A stretch of 21,129 nucleotides of DNA from Deltaproteobacteria bacterium (GTDB taxonomy: Bacteria > Myxococcota_A > Polyangia > Polyangiales > B10-G4), in NCBI GenBank assembly GCA_003647065.1, contig QMMC01000064.1, forward strand, positions 1-21,129, in the 5' to 3' direction. Below the pieces are notes generated by a model. The model was given only the letters and a program-made list of their open reading frames with translations, made no database searches and was not told where the DNA came from. This document shows positions 1,582 to 10,298 of this stretch, one piece after another (the first letter of the stretch is position 1; each line of letters starts with the position of its first letter). A program made the position numbers and the translations under genes.

Positions 1582-2301
1582 ATGCGAAACGCGATTGGAG
1601 CAGCGCTCCTCTTGATCGTCGGCTGCGGTGGGGTGCAGTCAGAACCCGCGGCACCGGCCCCCGAGGCCGAACCCGTCGCCGAGGCCGACGCGCCGCCGGC
1701 CTCGGACCGGATGCAGCAGCACTTCACGGACGTCGGAATCGCCCGGGACGCGGTGATTCAGGGCGACCTCGAGGCGGTCCGGGCGCCCCTCGCGCGCATC
1801 GCCGCAGCCGAGTACGGCTTCGACCTGCCCGCCGATTGGCTCCAGTGGGTCGAGGAGATGCAGCAATCGGCCGGGGGCTACGCCGACTCGGCGGACCTCC
1901 TCGCGGCGGCGAACGCGGTCGCGTCGTTGACCGAGAGCTGCGCCGATTGCCATCGAACCACCCTCGGTGGGCCGGCCATCGCCGAGGAGACTGAACCACC
2001 GCACAACGAGGACCTCGTGGGGTGGATGACCACCCACGCCTGGGGCACGGAGCAGCTGTGGATCGGCCTGACAGCGCCCTCCCACGAGGCTTGGGCCCGC
2101 GGCGCGGCCGCGATCATCGGTGACGGGGCCATCTCCGAGGCCGAAGGCATGAACGAAGCCCTCGCGCCCCAACTCGAAGCGGTCCAGGCCCTCGGAGTCC
2201 GAGCCCGGGAGGCCGGGCAGCCCGCGGAGATGGCGGCCGTCTACGCCGAGATCCTCACCAGCTGCGCGGATTGCCACACCGCCCTCGACGGCAGGCGTTA
2301 G
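1582..2301 (+). CDS. Exported lipoprotein, probable di-haem c-type cytochrome
   Basis: The N-terminus MRNAIGAALLLIVGCGG is a signal peptide with a lipobox Cys. There are two CXXCH haem-attachment motifs (ESCADCHRT near residue 120, TSCADCHTA near residue 232). It is divergent from amt with an 81-bp intergenic region. No strong SD is present. Confidence 0.6.
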   Translation: MRNAIGAALLLIVGCGGVQSEPAAPAPEAEPVAEADAPPASDRMQQHFTDVGIARDAVIQGDLEAVRAPLARIAAAEYGFDLPADWLQWVEEMQQSAGGYADSADLLAAANAVASLTESCADCHRTTLGGPAIAEETEPPHNEDLVGWMTTHAWGTEQLWIGLTAPSHEAWARGAAAIIGDGAISEAEGMNEALAPQLEAVQALGVRAREAGQPAEMAAVYAEILTSCADCHTALDGRR

Positions 2302-3731: not shown

Positions 3732-4232
3732 TCAGTCAGCGCAGGTCACGGTGATGCCGTGCGTGTGGTCGCCGGCGGACGTGGAGGTCGCCGTCACGGT
3801 GGTGCCGGCGGCGAGATCGGTGAAGTTCGCAGCCGTGATGGTCACGCTGTGACTGTGGGAGCTCGAGCCCATGATGTCGTAGGTCTTCTCGGCGCCGGCC
3901 GTGACGTCCGCAGCCGAAACCGTCATGGCGTGCGAGTGGTTCGAGCCAATCTCTGTGTTCCAGCTGCCGCAGCCGGTGCCGGTATCGCCGGCGGTGCCGG
4001 TGTCGCCGGCGGTGCCGCTGTCGGTGGGCGTGCTGCTGTCGGTGGGCGTGCTGCTGTCGGAGCCCGTGCCGCTGTCGGTGGGCGTGCTGCTGTCGGAGCC
4101 CGTGCCGCTGTCGGTGGGCGTGCCGCTATCGGTGACAGGGTCGTCGTCGCCGCAGCCGATGACTGAGACGAGTCCAACGCCGGCGCCGACCGCAACGAGG
4201 GAGCTAAGAAATTCGCGTCGTGAGTTGATCAT
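3732..4232 (-). CDS. Tat-signal lipoprotein with tandem-repeat linker and C-terminal triple-HxH domain (paralog 1)
   Basis: N-terminus MINSRREFLSSLVAVGAGVGLVSVIGCGDDD carries a twin-arginine motif plus a lipobox Cys. The linker (TPTDSGTGSDSS)n is encoded by 18-nt tandem repeats. The C-terminal ~80 aa (GCGSWNTEIGSNHSHAMTV...SHSHSVTI...DHTHGITVTCAD) has three HxH motifs bounded by two Cys. It is a close paralog of 6574-7104. The six-frame ORF extends to 4349, but the Tat-motif Met at 4232 is the better start. Confidence 0.6.
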   Translation of the reverse strand: MINSRREFLSSLVAVGAGVGLVSVIGCGDDDPVTDSGTPTDSGTGSDSSTPTDSGTGSDSSTPTDSSTPTDSGTAGDTGTAGDTGTGCGSWNTEIGSNHSHAMTVSAADVTAGAEKTYDIMGSSSHSHSVTITAANFTDLAAGTTVTATSTSAGDHTHGITVTCAD

Positions 4233-4382
4233 GGAGCCATTCTTAACGGCATCCGTGCGTTTGTGCACACATAATTGAGCATGGCGATCGAAATTAAGTT
4301 CGGCGCCAATCCCGAAGGCCCGAGATAGACCGTACCAATTTGCGGACAAGGAGAGCGCGGGCCTCGCGGCGGAACGCCGCGT

Positions 4383-6530
4383 CTATTGGCAGACGAAGCG
4401 CTCGTCGGACCGGCTGAAGCGCGTGCGGGTTTCGCATCGCTGGTCGGCGAGGCACTCCGGCTCGGCGGCGTCGCACTGGGCGACGCAGCCGGCGGAGCCG
4501 TCGCCGAGGTCGATGCAGAAGGTCTCGGCGTTGCCGGTCCGGTCCGGGCAGAAGGGCCGCTCGGCGGTGCAGGGCAGGCTGCAGAAGGACGGCCCGCCGG
4601 TCCCTGACGTCGCGCAGTATCCGCCTTCGTAGTCGCAGTCGTTGTCCACGGCGCAGGGGCCGCCGATGAACCCCTCGTTGAACGCCGGGTTCACGTCGGG
4701 GAGGGCGCGGATGAAGGCCTCGATGGTCGCCACCGCGGCCTCGCCGTCTGCTGTGGTGGGCCAGGCGCGAAATACCGGCGGCATGGCGGCGGACCCGACC
4801 GGCGTCAGCTTATTGTAGAGGATGCTGGTCTCCGGCGAGCCCGGCTGGATCAAGCCGCCGAGGGCGAGGAGGTAGCGCAGCTCCGGGTACTCGGAGTCGT
4901 CACCGACGATCTGGAAGCCGTCGTGGCAGCCCTGGCACGACGACGAGCGCAGTACTGAGGAGACCATCGCGTCGTAGAGCCCGCGTAGCTCGGCGTCTTC
5001 GTTGAGCAGGCGCCTATAGGCGGGGTAGACGTCGACTCGGGCGGCCGCGGGGAGCGCGCCCTGGGCTCGGCCGAGGACGAGGATCGAGCGGTTCTTGTCG
5101 TCGGCCATCCAAATCGTCCCGTCCGCTGCGACGTAGGGCGCGACCGGCGCACCCTTGGGGCGCACGTTGGGAACGGCGAACCAAGCGTCGATGAGATACG
5201 AGCCCTGGGCCGCGAAGACAGAGCCCGAGGTCGTCGGATACTCGCGCTCGACCGAGGTGCCGGCGCCGGTTGGGTCTTCGAGGTAGGTCGCGCCCTCTTG
5301 GCGGATCGGCAGGCCGTTCGGGTCGACCTCGAAGGCGAGCAGGCGATGGCCCGCGGGGCGGTAGCCGTGCATCGGGACCAGGAGCTGGCCCTCGAGCTCT
5401 TCGAACATGTCGCCGTGGTAGTAGGTGAGGCCCAGCGGCGCGCCGTGGGGCGGCAAGAGTACGTGGGGCGGTCGGTAATCGGGGTTGTCGATGCTGCACA
5501 GGAACGCGTCGTAGTCCGCCCACTCTTCGCTCGTGCTGTCGACGTCGTAGCAGTAGGGCCAGCCGTAGTGCTTGGGCGGTTCGAGTCCTTCCAGTTCAGC
5601 ACGGGGGATGACGTTCAGCTCCTCGAAGGGGCGTCCGCCATCTGGGAAATCGCGGCCGTTCTCTACCTGGAGCAGGTCGCCGTTGGGCGCGAAGGCGAGG
5701 CCCATCGAGTTGCGCAAGCCGAAGGCGACGACGCGGAAGGTGGGGTCCCATCCGTCGACGACTGAGCCGCGATAGTCGTAGCGCCGAATCACGCCGCCAT
5801 GGTCTTCGGGGCGGGCGGCCGGCGGGCCGCCTCCGAGCACGCCGTCGGCTTCGAGGCACTCGCCCCCGAGGAAGCCCGCGCAGTGGTCCGAGAACGCCCC
5901 GACGTTGAGGTAGAGGTTGCCGACGTCGTCGAAGACGAACTGCGTCAGGGGGTGGTAGCTGTTGCGCGACCCGTTTCGGTCCATCGGCGGCAGGCCGTCG
6001 ACCACCGTGACGATCGCGCTCTCGTCGATGGTGCCATCGGCTCCGACCGCGTCGGCCGGGAACGCGAAGATACGGGTATCCTCGCCGACGAAGATGTGGC
6101 CGTCGGGGCCGACGGCGACCAGGTGCGGCACCGAGAGCCCGCTGAGGACCCGGGTCAGGGTCGAGTTCGGCGGCGTGCTCGCGTCGAGGTAGTAGAGGCC
6201 GCCGCGTCCCGGGTCCCAACCGCCGAGGTCGGTTACTAGAAACTGATACGGGCGCCCCGGGAGCTCGACCAAGGTGCGCGGCGAGAACGTCGTGCCGTCG
6301 TCTCCGGCGACCACACCCGCGCAGGCGTAGTCCGCCGTGTCGACGACCACCCGAGGCCAGCCGCCACAGGTGACGCCGGTCCGCGAATAGTCATCGGCCT
6401 TGCCGGTCGGGAGCGGCGGGAGGTCTTCCCGGCGCTCGGCCACTTCACCGGAGGCGCACGCGCCCACGAGGCCGAGGGCCGAGAGGCCCAGGAGCGCCAG
6501 CGAGAGCAGGATCAAACTTTTGGCATGCAT
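4383..6530 (-). CDS. Lipoprotein: soluble glucose/sorbosone dehydrogenase-like beta-propeller fused to a c-type cytochrome domain and a Cys-rich C-terminal tail
   Basis: Signal peptide plus lipobox (MHAKSLILLSLALLGLSALGLVGAC). SGDH-family blocks are present (HLVAVGPDGHIFVGED, HYGWPYCY, LLPPHGAPLGLTYY, GTIWMADDKNRSILVL). There is a CXXCH haem motif (SSCQGCHDGF) followed by about 90 aa with 14 Cys. The GTG at 6554 is an alternative start; the ATG at 6530 gives a clean signal peptide. Confidence 0.75.
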   Translation of the reverse strand: MHAKSLILLSLALLGLSALGLVGACASGEVAERREDLPPLPTGKADDYSRTGVTCGGWPRVVVDTADYACAGVVAGDDGTTFSPRTLVELPGRPYQFLVTDLGGWDPGRGGLYYLDASTPPNSTLTRVLSGLSVPHLVAVGPDGHIFVGEDTRIFAFPADAVGADGTIDESAIVTVVDGLPPMDRNGSRNSYHPLTQFVFDDVGNLYLNVGAFSDHCAGFLGGECLEADGVLGGGPPAARPEDHGGVIRRYDYRGSVVDGWDPTFRVVAFGLRNSMGLAFAPNGDLLQVENGRDFPDGGRPFEELNVIPRAELEGLEPPKHYGWPYCYDVDSTSEEWADYDAFLCSIDNPDYRPPHVLLPPHGAPLGLTYYHGDMFEELEGQLLVPMHGYRPAGHRLLAFEVDPNGLPIRQEGATYLEDPTGAGTSVEREYPTTSGSVFAAQGSYLIDAWFAVPNVRPKGAPVAPYVAADGTIWMADDKNRSILVLGRAQGALPAAARVDVYPAYRRLLNEDAELRGLYDAMVSSVLRSSSCQGCHDGFQIVGDDSEYPELRYLLALGGLIQPGSPETSILYNKLTPVGSAAMPPVFRAWPTTADGEAAVATIEAFIRALPDVNPAFNEGFIGGPCAVDNDCDYEGGYCATSGTGGPSFCSLPCTAERPFCPDRTGNAETFCIDLGDGSAGCVAQCDAAEPECLADQRCETRTRFSRSDERFVCQ

Positions 6531-6573
6531 GGCCACGAAGCCGTGGCCTAGCACGCCCGGAAGGAGGGCGCGA

Positions 6574-7104
6574 TCAGGCGCCGCACGTCACCATGATCTC
6601 GTGGCGGTGACCGCCACCGCTGGTACCCGTCTGGCTCGAATCCTTCGTCACCGTGCCGCCGCCGGCGAGGGTTGTGAAGTCTCCTGCGTTCAGGCTCACC
6701 GTGTGATTGTGGGTGGCAGTGCCCATGAGGTCGTAGCTCTTGGCGACGCCGGCCGTCACATCCGCTTCCGACACCGTCATCGCGTGCGAGTGGTTCGTGC
6801 CGATGTTCACGGTGACCACCGCGCAGCTCGCCGCCATGGCCCCGTCGCTCGCATCGGCGCCGCCGCCGTCGGTCGCGCCGCCGTCGGTGCCGCCGCCGTC
6901 GGTGCCGCCACCATCTGTGCCGCCGCCGTCTGTGCCGCCGCCGTCGGTGTCGCCACCATCGGTGCCACCTCCGTCGGTGCCGCCACCATCGGTGCCGGTG
7001 TCGGCGGGGGCGTCGTCGTCGCCGCAGCCGATAACCGTGACGAGGCCGACGCCGGCGCCGACCGCGAGAAGGGAGCTAAGGAATTCACGTCGAGTACGAT
7101 TCAT
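6574..7104 (-). CDS. Tat-signal lipoprotein with tandem-repeat linker and C-terminal triple-HxH domain (paralog 2)
   Basis: N-terminus MNRTRREFLSSLLAVGAGVGLVTVIGCGDDD. The linker (GGTDG)n is encoded by 15-nt tandem repeats. The C-terminal domain (SCAVVTVNIGTNHSHAMTV...THNHTVSL...GHRHEIMVTCGA) is collinear with the paralog at 3732-4232. The ORF extends to 7140; the Met at 7104 matches the start of the paralog. Confidence 0.6.
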   Translation of the reverse strand: MNRTRREFLSSLLAVGAGVGLVTVIGCGDDDAPADTGTDGGGTDGGGTDGGDTDGGGTDGGGTDGGGTDGGGTDGGATDGGGADASDGAMAASCAVVTVNIGTNHSHAMTVSEADVTAGVAKSYDLMGTATHNHTVSLNAGDFTTLAGGGTVTKDSSQTGTSGGGHRHEIMVTCGA

Positions 7105-7167: not shown

Positions 7168-7680
7168 TCAGCGCTCTCCGGGCTTCGGGAGGGCGTCCCG
7201 GGACTCGAAAACGGGCACCTTCGCCAGGGATCGGAGGTGATCTTTCGGCAGGCGGTGGGCCCGGGCTCCGGCGAGGACCAAGTCGAGGTACTCGCGCCGC
7301 GGAGGGATCACCTCGGCCGACCGGAACTCCGCGCGCACGACGTAGAGCCAGGCTTGGGTCTCCCCGGCGGGGACCCGCACGGTGACCGGAGCGTCTCCCC
7401 GGGAGTATCGACCCGGGTGCCCTTCCTTCTCGTCGAGGGCCAGAAGGCCGCCGTCGTCGACCTCGAGGACGACTCCGGGGAGTTCGACCCCCGCGCGCCG
7501 GTGCACATTGGCCGCGCCGCCCTTTCGCGCAGGCGACCGGTAGTTCCAGACGAGCTCCCATCCCGAGAGCAGCCCCTGGTAGGCGTTCAGCACGTTCCCG
7601 TCGCCGTGACCGCGGTCTTCCATCCACCGGCGCAGATCGGGCAGGTGCATGTTGGAGCCGTAGGCGAAGACGCGATGCAT
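7168..7680 (-). CDS. Gamma-glutamyl cyclotransferase (GGCT/C7orf24-type)
   Basis: The 170-aa product starts MHRVFAYGSNM (GGCT signature YFAYGSNL). KGGAANV matches HGGIATI of human GGCT. LDEKEGHPGRY matches LDEQEGVKSGMY, including the catalytic Glu of the LDxxEG block. Its ATG shares one nucleotide with the TGA of the upstream gene (TGATG at 7678-7682). The six-frame ORF has a 157-aa N-terminal extension, rejected because it overlaps the upstream CDS in another frame. Confidence 0.75.
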   Translation of the reverse strand: MHRVFAYGSNMHLPDLRRWMEDRGHGDGNVLNAYQGLLSGWELVWNYRSPARKGGAANVHRRAGVELPGVVLEVDDGGLLALDEKEGHPGRYSRGDAPVTVRVPAGETQAWLYVVRAEFRSAEVIPPRREYLDLVLAGARAHRLPKDHLRSLAKVPVFESRDALPKPGER

Positions 7681-8620
7681 CACGGCTCGGTGCTCGTCTC
7701 TCCTGGCGGATCCACCTCGAATCGTGCCGCCAGCCTTTGCACCCACCGCCAGTCGAGGATCTTCTCGACGCGAAAGAAGCACGCAAACGCAACGCCGGTG
7801 AGCTGGTAGACGAAGCCAATAGCCATCATCAGCAACACGCCCCAGTGGAAGCCCCAGATGAGCACGGCCCAGACCACGCCGGCTCGCCGGTGAAGGAGCG
7901 CGGCCGGGGCTCCCCACTCGATGATCAGGCTCAGCCAGGCCATGGCGGCGAAGAAGAGCGGGTACGAGAGCAGCCAGGCGCCGAGGGGCGAGTACACGCT
8001 GCCCAGCTCGATTTTGCGCACGTTGTCGTAGGCGATGTAGTTGCGGAGGTTCACCTCGCTGACGAACTCGGCGCCGCTGTTGCCGTACTTGGCGAAGGCC
8101 GCCAGCAGATAGACGGCCGTGCATACGATGGCGATGAGGCGGATGGCCCACCCGTAGCGCCCGCTCTCTTCGCCCTTCTTTACTCGGCCCGCGCGCGAAT
8201 CGAGGGAGATGGCGTCGGCCGCTGGGGCGAGGGCGAGGACGATGATCTGCAAAGTCATCATGTGGTCGACGTGCAGGATCATCCCGAAGGAGTTCGAGTA
8301 GGTGAGCACCCAGAGCTGCAGCGCGGCGAAGATCGGGCCGGTGATTCGATAGCGGTAGCCAAAGGCGAAGCAGGCTGCGAAGACGATGGTGAGTATCACC
8401 AGGGCGATGACGACCGCCGGCAGGAGAGGCCGCGGCGCGAAGGTGGCGAGGCCAACGGGCCGAAAGAAGGCCTGGTCGACGTGGGCGTAGCTCATCAGGA
8501 AGGGCGAGCGAATGATCAGGTAGATCAGCGCGTAGCCTCCGACGAGCACGCGCAGCATACCGAGGCGCTCGGCCGGGGCCGAGGGCATGAAGACCCGGTC
8601 CATGGCGCCGATCACGGCGT

Positions 8621-8624
<4 letters not shown>
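7680..8624 (-). CDS. Polytopic integral membrane protein (about 8 TM), family unassigned; possibly HTTM-like
   Basis: The 314-aa product is very hydrophobic with multiple predicted TM helices (LRVLVGGYALIYLII, LLPAVVIALVILTIVFAACFAF, IRLIAIVCTAVYLLAAF, VLLMMAIGFVYQLTGVAFACFF). Its start ATGA overlaps the upstream gene stop at 8621-8624. Its stop overlaps the GGCT start. Any HTTM-like fold is a guess from size and topology only. Confidence 0.65.
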
Positions 8625-9073
<449 letters not shown>

Positions 9074-9104
9074 CGCTGGCAGATTATGCTTACCATCCGC
9101 CGCC

Positions 9105-10298
9105 ATGGGGAGCCTCTCCATTCTTTCGGCGTTGATGATCCTGGCCGCGGCATCCGTCTCGGCGCAGGCCCCGGACCCTGCCGACGGGGGCCTCGACGCG
9201 TCGGCGGATGCGGGCGATGCGGGCGATGCGGGCGAAGGCGGCGATGCTGCCCCGCGCGCCGACGACGAGCTGCTCCCGGCGATCGTGGAACTTCCGGCCG
9301 AGCCCCTCGACCTGGTCGTCGGCGTCGCGGGCAGTGAGCCCTTCGTCATCGTGGGGGACGGCCGGCTTCGAGGGATCAGCATCGAGACCTGGGAGAAGGT
9401 GGCCTCGGAGCTAAACATTCGTTATGAGTACCGTCCTTATCCGAACGCCCTCAGTTTGGTGAACGCCGTCGCCCGGGGCGACGTGGACGTGGGGGTCGGG
9501 CCCCTCAGCATCACCAGCGAGCGGGCCTCTCGCGTCTCCTTCACCCAGCCCCACTTCTCGGGCTCCCTCTCCATCGCCGCCCGTCCAGCCGAGCGCGGGA
9601 TCTTCGGCCACCTATCGCCGCTCTTCCGACGGGCGTTCCTCACGGGCCTCGCCATCCTCCTCCTCGTGCTGACCTTCGTGGGGGTCCTCTTCTGGCTCGC
9701 GGAGCGACGGGCCAATCCCGAGCACTTCCCGCCCTCACCCCTCAGTGGCATCGGCAACGGTGTCTGGCTCGCGGTCGTGACGATGACCACCGTCGGCTAC
9801 GGTGACCGCTCACCGATGACTCCCCTCGGACGGGTCATCGCCGGGGTGTGGATGCTCATCGCGCTGCTGACCACGTCGTCGCTCACGGCGTTCCTGGCGA
9901 CGGCGCTCACGCTCTCGACCCTCGACCACGCGGCGATCGACACCATCGAAGACCTCGAGGGAAAGCGCGTCGCGGTTCCCCGGGGAACTGCCGCGGTGCC
10001 CTTCGTGCGCCGCCATGGCGGCCGCGTGGTCGAAGCCGACAGCGTCCAGGACGCCATGCGCCTCGCCAACGAGGGCGAGGTCGCCGCCACGGTCTTCGAC
10101 ACTCCGGTCCTCGCCTACGAGCTCACGCAGCATCCCGACCTCGCGTTGGTGCTCTCGCAGCACAGCTACGAAGACGTGGGCTACGGCTTCGCCGTGGCCA
10201 TTGGCAGTGAGTTTGAGGAGCTCATCGACATGAAGCTCCTCAAGCTCAGGGAATCGGCGGGCATGGACGTGATCCGTACCGGGTGGCTGGGGCCCTGA
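9105..10298 (+). CDS. Prokaryotic ionotropic glutamate receptor-like ligand-gated K+ channel (GluR0-type): SBP lobe S1, M1, P-loop, M2, SBP lobe S2
   Basis: Signal peptide MGSLSILSALMILAAASVSAQA, then an acidic low-complexity stretch (DAGDAGDAGEGG). A type-3 solute-binding-protein-like segment follows. M1 is LTGLAILLLVLTFVGVLFWLA. The pore helix plus K+ selectivity filter is VWLAVVTMTTVGYGD. M2 is VIAGVWMLIALLTTSSLTAFLATAL. A second SBP half follows (KRVAVPRGTAAV...TPVLAYEL). A GTG at 9063 is an alternative start. Confidence 0.8.
   Translation: MGSLSILSALMILAAASVSAQAPDPADGGLDASADAGDAGDAGEGGDAAPRADDELLPAIVELPAEPLDLVVGVAGSEPFVIVGDGRLRGISIETWEKVASELNIRYEYRPYPNALSLVNAVARGDVDVGVGPLSITSERASRVSFTQPHFSGSLSIAARPAERGIFGHLSPLFRRAFLTGLAILLLVLTFVGVLFWLAERRANPEHFPPSPLSGIGNGVWLAVVTMTTVGYGDRSPMTPLGRVIAGVWMLIALLTTSSLTAFLATALTLSTLDHAAIDTIEDLEGKRVAVPRGTAAVPFVRRHGGRVVEADSVQDAMRLANEGEVAATVFDTPVLAYELTQHPDLALVLSQHSYEDVGYGFAVAIGSEFEELIDMKLLKLRESAGMDVIRTGWLGP

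What the first reader, a model, noticed from the sequence alone, without database searches (positions are those of the whole stretch)
3732..7104. Duplicated Tat-lipoproteins with a novel triple-HxH domain flanking a sugar-dehydrogenase/cytochrome c fusion
Two paralogous genes (3732-4232 and 6574-7104, minus strand) encode proteins with the same architecture:
- a twin-arginine signal plus lipobox (M..SRREFLSSL.AVGAGVGLV.VIGC);
- a low-complexity acidic linker;
- a highly similar ~80-aa C-terminal domain, I/VG.NHSHAMTVS.ADVTAG..K.YD.MG…H.H.V….A..FT.LA.G.TVT……H.H.I.VTC, with three HxH pairs and one Cys at each end.

They bracket a lipoprotein predicted to be a PQQ-type soluble sugar/sorbosone dehydrogenase beta-propeller fused to a CXXCH cytochrome.

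I cannot place the HxH domain in any named family. Tat export suggests the domain is folded or metallated in the cytoplasm. HxH pairs are typical Cu, Ni or Zn ligands.

The arrangement suggests a periplasmic redox module in which the small proteins act as metal or electron-transfer partners of the dehydrogenase-cytochrome. This may be an undescribed system.
Basis: partly seen in the sequence, partly recalled or inferred. Interest (0 to 1): 0.8.

Follow-up and report, generated by a model that had tools for sequence, protein, structure and literature searches.

The report
Unnamed triple-HxH Tat lipoprotein family
The two small genes belong to a real, widespread but unnamed family of exported, lipid-anchored proteins whose 78-residue domain has six near-invariant histidines, matches no known fold and is probably a metal site; their position beside the sugar dehydrogenase-cytochrome gene is found only in this narrow lineage.

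Summary
Observation confirmed. Genes A (3732-4232, minus) and B (6574-7104, minus) are paralogues, each with a twin-arginine motif, a lipobox, a tandem-repeat acidic linker and a ~78-aa C-terminal domain with three HxH pairs. They flank a lipoprotein that fuses a PQQ-type sugar dehydrogenase to a mono-haem cytochrome c.

The domain is a large orphan family: 1664 clusters at 50% identity, in Myxococcota, Bacteroidota, some Betaproteobacteria and Bdellovibrionota. It has no Pfam, NCBIfam, PDB-sequence or literature match. Five His are invariant in 184 domains. The sixth His (position 13) and Asp23 swap in one subtype.

The proposed redox module with the dehydrogenase is not supported. None of 80 genome loci carrying the domain holds a dehydrogenase homologue. 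Five dehydrogenase homologues at 55-77% identity have no HxH neighbour. Only two near relatives (84% and 93%) keep one copy next to it, on different sides.

Best reading: a self-contained, Tat-exported, membrane-tethered metal-binding domain of unknown physiological role. The metal site is inferred, not shown.

The parts
3732..4232 (-). HxH lipoprotein A (166 aa), downstream paralogue
   Evidence: ORF and translation. 94% identical domain in P0001. Member of the HxH family profile.
4152..4232 (-). A: Tat-type signal (SRREFL) plus lipobox VIGC, residues 1-27
   Evidence: Read directly from the sequence. The same motif class recurs across the family.
3972..4151 (-). A: acidic Thr/Ser/Gly/Asp linker, encoded by an 18-bp tandem repeat
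   Evidence: TRF finds 18 bp x 8.1 at 3990-4134. The linker is much shorter in the near-identical P0001 (133 aa in total).
3735..3971 (-). A: triple-HxH domain (residues 88-166). HxH pairs lie at 3930-3938, 3849-3857 and 3759-3767.
   Evidence: Coordinates. Conservation. AF2 model pLDDT 94.1. Internal triplication by hhalign.
4383..6554 (-). Lipoprotein fusing a PQQ-type sugar dehydrogenase beta-propeller (GSDH/TrAA12) to a mono-haem cytochrome c (CQGCH at 4923-4937) and a 12-Cys C-terminal module (4386-4700). The likely start is the ATG at 6530.
   Evidence: Pfam GSDH E 2.4e-10. Homologues carry PF22807 + PF07995 and are named PQQ-dependent sugar dehydrogenase. CXXCH is present in 86/86 full-length homologues. 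Coordinates.
6574..7104 (-). HxH lipoprotein B (176 aa), upstream paralogue. Its stop lies 20-44 bp before the dehydrogenase start.
   Evidence: ORF. 45% identity to A, E 1e-37. P0020 is identical but for one linker residue.
7024..7104 (-). B: Tat-type signal (TRREFL) plus lipobox VIGC, residues 1-27
   Evidence: Read directly from the sequence.
6826..7023 (-). B: (TDGGG)n linker, encoded by a 15-bp tandem repeat
   Evidence: TRF finds 15 bp x 9.6 at 6854-6997.
6577..6825 (-). B: triple-HxH domain (residues 94-176). HxH pairs lie at 6784-6792, 6703-6711 and 6601-6609.
   Evidence: Coordinates. Conservation.

Best explanation
A and B are two old paralogues (about 56% identical in the domain) of a large, unnamed family of small exported lipoproteins.

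**Shown**
- The family domain (~78 aa) is an internal triplication of a ~26-aa unit: strand, loop, HxH, strand, and a short helix in the first two copies.
- Five His are invariant.
- The sixth His (position 13) and Asp23 are about 89% conserved. They exchange identities (H13D with D23H) in one subtype.
- The domain has no detectable relative in Pfam, NCBIfam or the PDB, by sequence or by predicted structure.

**Inferred**
- Each HxH pair is in phase with the inward-facing hydrophobic residues of its strand (H-x-H-x-h-T-h).
- The three pairs would therefore point into the same end of a small pseudo-threefold beta structure.
- Together they would form a His6 site (plus Asp23, as ligand or second shell) holding one or two divalent metal ions.
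- The protein would fold in the cytoplasm and probably take up its metal there.
- It would then leave through Tat, be lipidated on Cys27, and hang from the membrane on a 60-66-residue flexible acidic tether.
- In the periplasm it would act as a self-contained metal-binding module: a metal buffer or chaperone, or a small redox or ROS-handling centre.

**Relation to the dehydrogenase**
Its position on both sides of the PQQ sugar dehydrogenase-cytochrome c gene is an arrangement of this narrow myxobacterial lineage. Co-transcription with that gene in this organism is possible. An obligatory partnership is not supported.
For: - Family size and spread: 1664 cluster representatives at E<=1e-3 and 742 at E<=1e-10. 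Loci come from Kofleriaceae, Polyangiaceae, Haliangiales, Sandaracinaceae, Flavobacteriaceae, Cyclobacteriaceae, Reichenbachiella, Ideonella and Pseudobdellovibrionaceae.
- Conservation in 184 domains: H15, H40, H42, H70 and H72 at 100%; H13 89% (Asp 10%); D23 89% (His 9%); Y32 95%; F51 95%; C78 89%.
- H13D co-occurs with D23H in the 'GKDDHEL' second-domain subtype: 12 of 18 Asp13 domains have His23.
- Triplication by hhalign: repeat 1 vs 2 probability 93% (E 3e-7); 2 vs 3 94% (E 1.6e-7); 1 vs 3 79% (E 1.6e-5).
- Model: pLDDT 94.1, pTM 0.81 with a 65-sequence alignment.
- No named family: Pfam and NCBIfam give only noise for A, B and 65 members. The PDB profile search gives nothing below E 0.24. 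All source names are 'hypothetical protein', and the precomputed Pfam field is empty. Literature searches found nothing.
- Signal: among 247 members with complete N-termini, 203 have an RR or RK/KR-type x-F-L motif and 185 have a lipobox.
- Self-contained unit: fusions of 2-3 domains (34 of 266 proteins) and adjacent paralogue pairs occur (L003, L049, L084, window).
- No universal neighbour: the largest neighbour cluster covers 15 of 84 loci, and neighbour clusters follow taxonomy.
- No GSDH link outside the clade.
Against: - No metal, structure or phenotype has been measured for any member.
- His convergence could not be checked, because model coordinates are not returned.
- Tat dependence is inferred from a motif. 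Most family members carry R-K rather than R-R. The NCBIfam scan of the full-length A and B proteins returned no family at E<=0.1, so no Tat-signal model hit was obtained either.
- In three related genomes at least one HxH gene sits tightly next to the dehydrogenase orthologue (window, L001, L089).
- Several Polyangiaceae loci place the HxH gene next to beta-propeller + dihaem (CCP/MauG-like) proteins.
- A functional tie to periplasmic haem enzymes in some lineages is therefore not excluded.
Confidence: 0.6

Rival explanations
1. A and B are dedicated metal or electron-transfer partners of the PQQ dehydrogenase-cytochrome c. The three genes form a periplasmic redox module.
For: - The genes run in the same direction with tight spacing: B's stop is 20-44 bp before the dehydrogenase start, and A starts 150 bp after its stop.
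- At least one HxH gene adjoins the dehydrogenase orthologue in L001 (93% identity) and L089 (84%).
- Other Polyangiaceae loci have beta-propeller + dihaem proteins next to an HxH gene (L055/L065/L066, L044, L062).
- CXXCH genes are nominally enriched within 2.5 kb: 15/339 against 10/582, p 0.02.
Against: - 0 of 80 genome loci have a GSDH homologue within 10 kb.
- Dehydrogenase homologues at 77, 69, 58, 57 and 55% identity have no HxH gene within 5 kb.
- The copy kept differs between close relatives.
- The CXXCH enrichment disappears once near-duplicate loci are removed (p 0.34).
- The family thrives in Flavobacteriaceae, where the neighbours are housekeeping genes.
- A weak terminator-like hairpin at 4316-4299 lies between the dehydrogenase and A.
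Confidence: 0.15
2. The domain is a small periplasmic metalloenzyme acting on reactive oxygen or nitrogen species, such as a superoxide- or peroxide-handling centre. It would be analogous to lipid-anchored Cu,Zn superoxide dismutase, which uses six His, one Asp and a disulfide.
For: - The ligand inventory is the same: 6 His + 1 Asp, with a Cys near each end of the domain.
- The gene usually stands alone.
- Recurrent neighbours have haem, oxygen or peroxide chemistry:
  - a globin-like 134-aa gene (identified by eye, not scanned against a family library) and ccsBA in Flavobacteriaceae;
  - CCP/MauG-like and DHOR dihaem proteins;
  - CcoNO;
  - two pirin genes in Tenacibaculum.
Against: - No structural similarity to SOD or any enzyme fold.
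- The domain is only 78 aa.
- The neighbour themes are lineage-specific and not statistically established.
- The Cu,Zn-SOD comparison rests on my own knowledge of that enzyme, not on a test here.
Confidence: 0.15
3. The conserved histidines are not a metal site. The domain would be a structural or ligand-binding beta module, for example one that senses pH or binds haem or a carbohydrate, tethered to the envelope.
For: - Long flexible tethers are typical of envelope-spanning binders.
- Myxococcota neighbours include a LysM/SLT transglycosylase.
Against: - Five invariant His arranged as three HxH pairs in phase with core-facing residues, together with the His/Asp swap at positions 13 and 23, is the signature of a coordinated centre rather than a binding surface.
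- The fold matches are all below significance.
Confidence: 0.1

Closest known systems
Tat-exported periplasmic metalloproteins that acquire their metal in the cytoplasm (for example the Mn-cupin MncA of Synechocystis; own knowledge)
   Same: - A twin-arginine type signal on a small soluble domain.
- A His-rich putative site.
- The logic that folding in the cytoplasm protects a site from periplasmic Cu or Zn.
   Different: - There is no cupin fold or cupin motif, and no Pfam cupin hit.
- The domain is a triplicated 26-aa unit.
- The protein is lipid-anchored through a long linker.
- The metal is unknown.
Periplasmic or lipoprotein Cu,Zn superoxide dismutase (SodC; own knowledge)
   Same: - Six His plus one Asp as the conserved polar inventory, including an HxH on a strand.
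- A Cys pair that could form a disulfide.
- Periplasmic location, lipid-anchored in some bacteria.
   Different: - About half the size.
- A Tat-type rather than a Sec signal.
Hexahistidine (His6) site of calprotectin for Mn(II)/Fe(II)/Ni(II) (own knowledge)
   Same: An all-His, six-ligand inventory that would suit octahedral divalent metals.
   Different: - Calprotectin is a eukaryotic EF-hand heterodimer with the site at a subunit interface.
- Here the six His lie in one small beta domain, and their geometry is untested.
Small periplasmic copper or zinc handling proteins (CopC, PCuAC, CusF, ZinT; own knowledge)
   Same: Small, beta-rich, exported, stand-alone metal binders that are sometimes lipoproteins.
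   Different: - None of their Pfam models match.
- Those sites use Met, Cys or fewer His.
- Most are Sec substrates and sit in metal-resistance or oxidase-assembly operons, which is not the case here. No plasmid copies were found.
PQQ-dependent sugar dehydrogenase with C-terminal cytochrome c (PF07995 GSDH / PF22807 TrAA12 proteins), for the middle gene only
   Same: - The Pfam matches.
- A single conserved CXXCH.
- A length of about 700 aa, as in Bradyrhizobium and Myxococcota homologues named 'PQQ-dependent sugar dehydrogenase'.
   Different: - It carries a lipobox.
- It carries a 12-Cys C-terminal module found only in the ~21 closest homologues.

Membership tests
Any Pfam-A or NCBIfam family (HxH domain) | Score above the curated cut-off against a family model | tested here: not met
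   There were 0 families for A and B at E<=0.1. For 65 diverse members, Pfam gave only scattered sub-threshold noise (best E 0.0006) and NCBIfam gave nothing meaningful. The precomputed Pfam field was empty for all 120 listed homologues.
Any solved structure or fold | Significant sequence or structure similarity to a PDB chain | tested here: not met
Tat (twin-arginine) substrates | An S/T-R-R-x-F-L-K type motif ahead of a moderately hydrophobic h-region | tested here: met
   A has SRREFLSSLVAVGAGVGLV and B has TRREFLSSLLAVGAGVGLV. 203 of 247 complete family members have an RR or RK/KR-type motif. Caveat: R-K outnumbers R-R (136 against 67).
Tat (twin-arginine) substrates | Export that depends on TatABC and a folded state | not testable with these tools
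   This needs a tat mutant, or RR-to-KK reporter fusions.
Bacterial lipoproteins | A lipobox [LVI][ASTVI][GAS]C at the end of the signal peptide | tested here: met
   VIGC with Cys27 in both A and B. A lipobox-like motif is present in 185 of 247 complete members.
Metalloprotein with a His6(+Asp) centre | Conservation of the putative ligands across the family | tested here: met
   Five His are 100% conserved. H13 and D23 are 89% conserved, with reciprocal H/D exchange.
Metalloprotein with a His6(+Asp) centre | Ligands converge in three dimensions and bind metal | not testable with these tools
   Structure prediction returns no coordinates. There is only indirect support: the HxH pairs are in phase with core-facing residues in all three repeats, and the domain is triplicated. 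ICP-MS or a structure is needed.
Conserved three-gene system HxH / SGDH-cytochrome c / HxH | Synteny kept in other genomes, tested from the HxH side | tested here: not met
   0 of 80 genome loci (10 kb flanks) have a GSDH homologue. Only L001, a 93% relative, does.
Conserved three-gene system HxH / SGDH-cytochrome c / HxH | Synteny kept in other genomes, tested from the dehydrogenase side | tested here: not met
   No HxH gene was found within 5 kb in L085 (77%), L090 (69%), L086 (58%), L088 (57%) or L087 (55%). L085-L088 were scanned with the HxH profile. L090 was judged from its called genes and two translated neighbours. L089 (84%) has only an upstream copy, and L001 only a downstream copy.
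PQQ-dependent soluble sugar dehydrogenase + cytochrome c (middle gene) | GSDH/TrAA12 beta-propeller match and a conserved CXXCH | tested here: met
   PF07995 E 2.4e-10. PF22807 + PF07995 are present in homologues. CXXCH is present in 86/86 full-length homologues. No Pfam cytochrome model scored, so the haem domain is assigned from the motif and its conservation. PQQ and haem binding themselves are untested.
Cu,Zn superoxide dismutase | Greek-key SOD fold or Sod_Cu Pfam match | tested here: not met
   No Pfam hit, and no SOD among the listed structural matches.

The most novel reading that the evidence does not exclude
The triple-HxH domain is a previously undescribed fold: a pseudo-threefold mini-barrel made of three HxH hairpin repeats. 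It would hold a buried hexahistidine metal centre, be loaded in the cytoplasm and be exported by Tat.

That would define a new class of lipid-tethered periplasmic metalloproteins in Myxococcota and Bacteroidota. In some lineages, this one included, the class would work with haem-containing beta-propeller oxidoreductases, as an electron or metal partner or as a ROS-handling centre.
Probability: 0.3. Interest if true: 0.75.

Novelty: new variant of a known kind. Interest (0 to 1): 0.5.

Why it matters
Small exported metal-binding proteins set which metal reaches which periplasmic enzyme, and few families of them are known.

This family has more than 1600 sequence clusters in two major phyla of aerobic heterotrophs and predators. 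It has no name, no structure and no literature. It combines three unusual features:
- an invariant histidine constellation;
- a clear internal triplication;
- a confident predicted structure without a known neighbour.

It is also only 78 residues long, with a probable disulfide, which makes it a cheap target for structure determination and metal analysis.

If the centre is a His6 site loaded before Tat export, it would be a new example of how folding location controls metal selectivity, and possibly a new bacterial metal-handling or redox protein.

The negative result also matters. The attractive "three-gene redox module" should not be propagated as a system.

Tried and rejected
- **Word-indexed homologue search with domain A alone.** It found only 3 proteins and wrongly suggested rarity. 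The exhaustive profile search corrected this.
- **The search for related loci with the 47-sequence alignment.** It worked with 8 closer sequences. The 80 loci are therefore biased towards members with AGxEKTYDI or IGSNHGH motifs.
- **AlphaFold-database fold searches.** The libraries were unavailable.
- **Look-ups of the exact window protein A and of P0160.** Neither was on record.
- **Searching for a universal operon partner.** All-against-all clustering of neighbours, plus Pfam summaries of the immediate upstream and downstream genes, gave only lineage-specific sets:
  - ccsBA/ResB, DUF2520, KdsC and Maf in Flavobacteriaceae;
  - LysM/SLT in Myxococcota;
  - S8 subtilases in Betaproteobacteria.
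- **Cytochrome c enrichment near HxH genes.** It was nominally significant (p 0.02) but not after removing near-duplicate loci (p 0.34), so I rejected it as evidence.
- **Plasmid search for metal-resistance context.** No match.
- **Literature searches on NHGH-type motifs, HxH with twin-arginine, and 'three HxH'.** Nothing relevant.
- **Homology to cupredoxin/multicopper oxidase HxH motifs, cupins, carbonic anhydrase, SOR, PCuAC or CopC.** I considered these from memory and rejected them. No family model or structure matched.

Full report
**1. What is in the sequence**

The window is 64-72% G+C. On the minus strand, between 7104 and 3732, three genes run in the same direction:
- B (6574-7104, 176 aa);
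- a 716/723-aa protein (4383-6530/6554);
- A (3732-4232, 166 aa).

A and B align over their full length (45% identity, E 1e-37). Both begin with an S/T-R-R-E-F-L motif, a Gly/Ala-rich hydrophobic stretch and the lipobox V-I-G-C (Cys27).

A 60-66-residue D/G/T/S linker follows. At the DNA level it is a tandem repeat: 18 bp x 8 in A and 15 bp x 9.6 in B.

Each protein ends in a ~78-aa domain with three HxH pairs and a Cys near each end.

The middle protein has these features:
- a Sec-type lipoprotein signal (LVGAC);
- a GSDH beta-propeller match (PF07995, E 2.4e-10);
- one CQGCH motif;
- a 12-Cys tail.

Its homologues carry PF22807 (TrAA12) + PF07995 and are named PQQ-dependent sugar dehydrogenase. 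All 86 full-length homologues keep one CXXCH at the same place.

**2. The HxH domain is a large orphan family**

A word-indexed search with domain A found only three proteins. An exhaustive profile search of 1.84 billion cluster representatives found 1664 at E<=1e-3 and 742 at E<=1e-10. These include proteins with two or three tandem domains.

A second profile search returned 328 proteins. All were named 'hypothetical protein' where named at all, and none had a precomputed Pfam domain.

Other searches for a named relative also failed:
- Pfam and NCBIfam scans of A, B and 65 diverse members gave only noise.
- A profile search of PDB sequences gave nothing below E 0.24.
- Four full-text literature searches found nothing.

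Genome loci come from Kofleriaceae, Polyangiaceae, Haliangiales, Sandaracinaceae, Flavobacteriaceae, Cyclobacteriaceae, Reichenbachiella/Fulvivirga, a few Betaproteobacteria (Ideonella) and Pseudobdellovibrionaceae.

**3. Anatomy of the domain**

Conservation in 184 domains aligned to the profile:
- H15, H40, H42, H70 and H72 are invariant.
- H13 is His in 89% and Asp in 10%.
- D23 is Asp in 89% and His in 9%.
- Y32 and F51 are 95% conserved; C78 is 89% conserved.

The Asp13 variants form a subtype ('GKDDHEL') that occurs as the second domain of two-domain proteins and lacks the C-terminal Cys. In it, 12 of 18 sequences have His at position 23. Positions 13 and 23 are therefore coupled, as expected if both belong to one centre.

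Splitting the alignment into thirds and comparing them with hhalign shows an internal triplication:

| Comparison | Probability | E-value |
|---|---|---|
| repeat 1 vs 2 | 93% | 3e-7 |
| repeat 2 vs 3 | 94% | 1.6e-7 |
| repeat 1 vs 3 | 79% | 1.6e-5 |

The unit is strand, loop, H-x-H-x-h-T-h strand, with a short helix after the first two copies.

In each copy the two His are in phase with the conserved hydrophobic residues that follow them: positions 13/15/17/19, 40/42/44/46 and 70/72/74/76. They should therefore face the core.

AlphaFold2 gave pLDDT 87 with 5 sequences and 94.1 (pTM 0.81) with 65 sequences. The predicted order is beta, alpha, beta, beta, alpha, beta, beta.

The tool returns no coordinates. 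Convergence of the six His is therefore an inference from the triplication and the residue phase, not a measurement.

**4. Signal**

Among 247 family members with complete N-termini:
- 67 have R-R-x-[FLIVMA]-[LIVMFAT];
- 136 have an R-K/K-R-type equivalent, for example SRKEFL or NRKTFI;
- 185 have a lipobox.

A Tat-like lipoprotein signal is thus a family trait. The predominance of R-K is a caveat for true Tat dependence.

**5. Is there a system with the dehydrogenase-cytochrome?**

*From the HxH side.* 80 loci from one-genome-per-species contigs with 10-kb flanks were searched with the window dehydrogenase. None has a homologue. Only L001 does, a 93% relative found earlier.

Clustering of all neighbouring ORFs found no partner present in more than 15 of 84 loci, and the clusters follow taxonomy:
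- Flavobacteriaceae have a divergent ResB-CcsA fusion, DUF2520, KdsC and Maf. They also have a 134-aa gene that looks globin-like by eye (not scanned against a family library).
- A Myxococcota group has a LysM/SLT transglycosylase upstream.
- Betaproteobacteria have S8 subtilases.
- A Tenacibaculum locus has two tandem HxH genes between two pirin genes.

*From the dehydrogenase side.* Homologues at 77, 69, 58, 57 and 55% identity have no HxH gene within 5 kb. For L085-L088 this rests on an HxH-profile scan of six-frame ORFs. For L090 it rests on its called genes and two translated neighbouring ORFs.

The 84% orthologue (L089) has the C-terminus of an HxH protein 20 bp upstream, in the B position, and the M20 peptidase directly downstream, so it has no A copy. 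L001 has GGACT, the dehydrogenase and an A-type copy, but no B.

The association is therefore real only in a narrow clade, and the two copies are individually dispensable there.

*A residual signal.* Several Polyangiaceae loci place the HxH gene next to 760-950-aa proteins with a YncE/lactonase-like beta-propeller and a CCP/MauG-like dihaem region. Three of these loci are near-identical; L044 and L062 are independent. Two further loci are next to CcoNO and one is near a DHOR dihaem protein.

CXXCH genes are nominally enriched within 2.5 kb (p 0.02), but not after removing near-duplicate loci (p 0.34). I treat this as a lead, not a finding.

**6. Most likely mechanism**

Established here:
- an orphan domain family;
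- a triplicated domain;
- an invariant His constellation;
- a Tat-like lipoprotein signal;
- a flexible tether whose length varies between relatives (A 166 aa against P0001 133 aa at 94% domain identity);
- no obligate partner.

Inferred:
- The three HxH pairs, with Asp23, form a buried centre for one or two divalent metal ions.
- The domain folds, and probably metallates, in the cytoplasm, which is the usual reason for Tat routing of small metalloproteins (own knowledge, for example MncA).
- It is then lipidated and works as a tethered periplasmic metal-binding or redox module.
- Which metal, and whether the role is buffering, delivery or catalysis, cannot be decided from sequence.

An all-His octahedral site would suit Mn(II), Fe(II) or Ni(II), as in the calprotectin His6 site (own knowledge). 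Six His plus Asp also recalls Cu,Zn-SOD (own knowledge), but no fold similarity supports that comparison.

Frequent fusion into 2-3-domain proteins and adjacent paralogue pairs suggest that the domains act together or as oligomers.

**7. Comparison with known systems, and novelty**

The middle gene is an ordinary member of the PQQ sugar dehydrogenase-cytochrome c family, with an extra lipobox and a Cys-rich tail.

The HxH domain fails every membership test I could run: Pfam, NCBIfam, PDB sequence and PDB structure. It works like a small exported metal-binding lipoprotein, which is a known kind, but it is a new family with an apparently new fold. I therefore file it as a new variant of a known kind.

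The system-level claim does not.

**8. Verdict**

This is a real and moderately interesting orphan metalloprotein-like family that deserves a structure and a metal analysis. The three-gene 'redox module' is a lineage-specific neighbourhood.

- Interest: 0.5.
- Confidence in the self-contained metal-binding Tat lipoprotein reading: 0.6.
- Confidence in the partner model: 0.15.

Noticed in passing
window 7168-9418 (minus strand): Directly upstream of B, and running in the same direction, lies a cluster of three genes: a 265-aa protein without any family match (8621-9418), an HTTM-domain membrane protein (7680-8624) and a GGACT/AIG2 gamma-glutamyl-cyclotransferase-like gene (7168 to about 7700). 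The GGACT-dehydrogenase adjacency is also seen in L001.
   Followed up: no
window 1582-2301 (plus strand): A 239-aa lipoprotein-like protein with two CXXCH motifs and a sub-threshold cytochrome c' match lies 1.4 kb from gene A. It is a second c-type haem protein in the neighbourhood.
   Followed up: no
window 3990-4134 and 6854-6997: The linkers of A and B are DNA tandem repeats (18 bp x 8 and 15 bp x 9.6). Linker length differs between near-identical relatives: A is 166 aa and P0001 is 133 aa, and B differs from P0020 by one repeat residue. The tether length therefore seems to evolve by repeat slippage.
   Followed up: partly
family-wide (P0008, P0013, P0014, P0023-P0031, P0035, P0038, P0041, P0051, P0111): A second-domain subtype ('GKDDHEL') replaces His13 by Asp and often Asp23 by His, and lacks the C-terminal Cys. 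It occurs after a canonical first domain in two-domain proteins, which suggests heterotypic domain pairs.
   Followed up: partly
family-wide N-termini: Most members carry R-K (for example SRKEFL or NRKTFI) rather than R-R in the Tat-like motif: 136 against 67 of 247. In many Bacteroidota members the lipobox Cys is followed by a run of Asp/Ser. From my own knowledge, this resembles the Bacteroidota surface-export signal.
   Followed up: no
L008, L016, L020, L028, L035, L041, L050-L052, L072 (about 5.7-10.2 kb in each locus): In Flavobacteriaceae the HxH gene is transcribed divergently from a 134-aa gene that looks globin-like by eye (not scanned against a family library) and a 1065-aa ResB-CcsA cytochrome c biogenesis fusion. 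DUF2520, KdsC and Maf follow it.
   Followed up: partly
L055 6624-9263, L065 6709-9306, L066 6350-9196, L044 4448-7252, L062 11585-13867: Polyangiaceae HxH genes sit next to large proteins that combine a YncE/lactonase-like beta-propeller with a CCP/MauG-like dihaem region. This architecture is analogous to the window's propeller-cytochrome fusion, but the proteins are not homologous to it by BLAST.
   Followed up: partly
L084 6962-9764: In Tenacibaculum two tandem HxH lipoprotein genes lie between two pirin (Fe-cupin) genes.
   Followed up: no
window 4386-4700; homologues P0267-P0291: The 12-Cys C-terminal module of the dehydrogenase-cytochrome is present only in its ~21 closest homologues. 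More distant ones have 2 Cys in the tail.
   Followed up: no
L085 5001-7134: The 77%-identical dehydrogenase orthologue is called as 593 aa plus an overlapping 131-aa ORF. This is probably a frameshift or an assembly error that splits off the Cys-rich tail.
   Followed up: no
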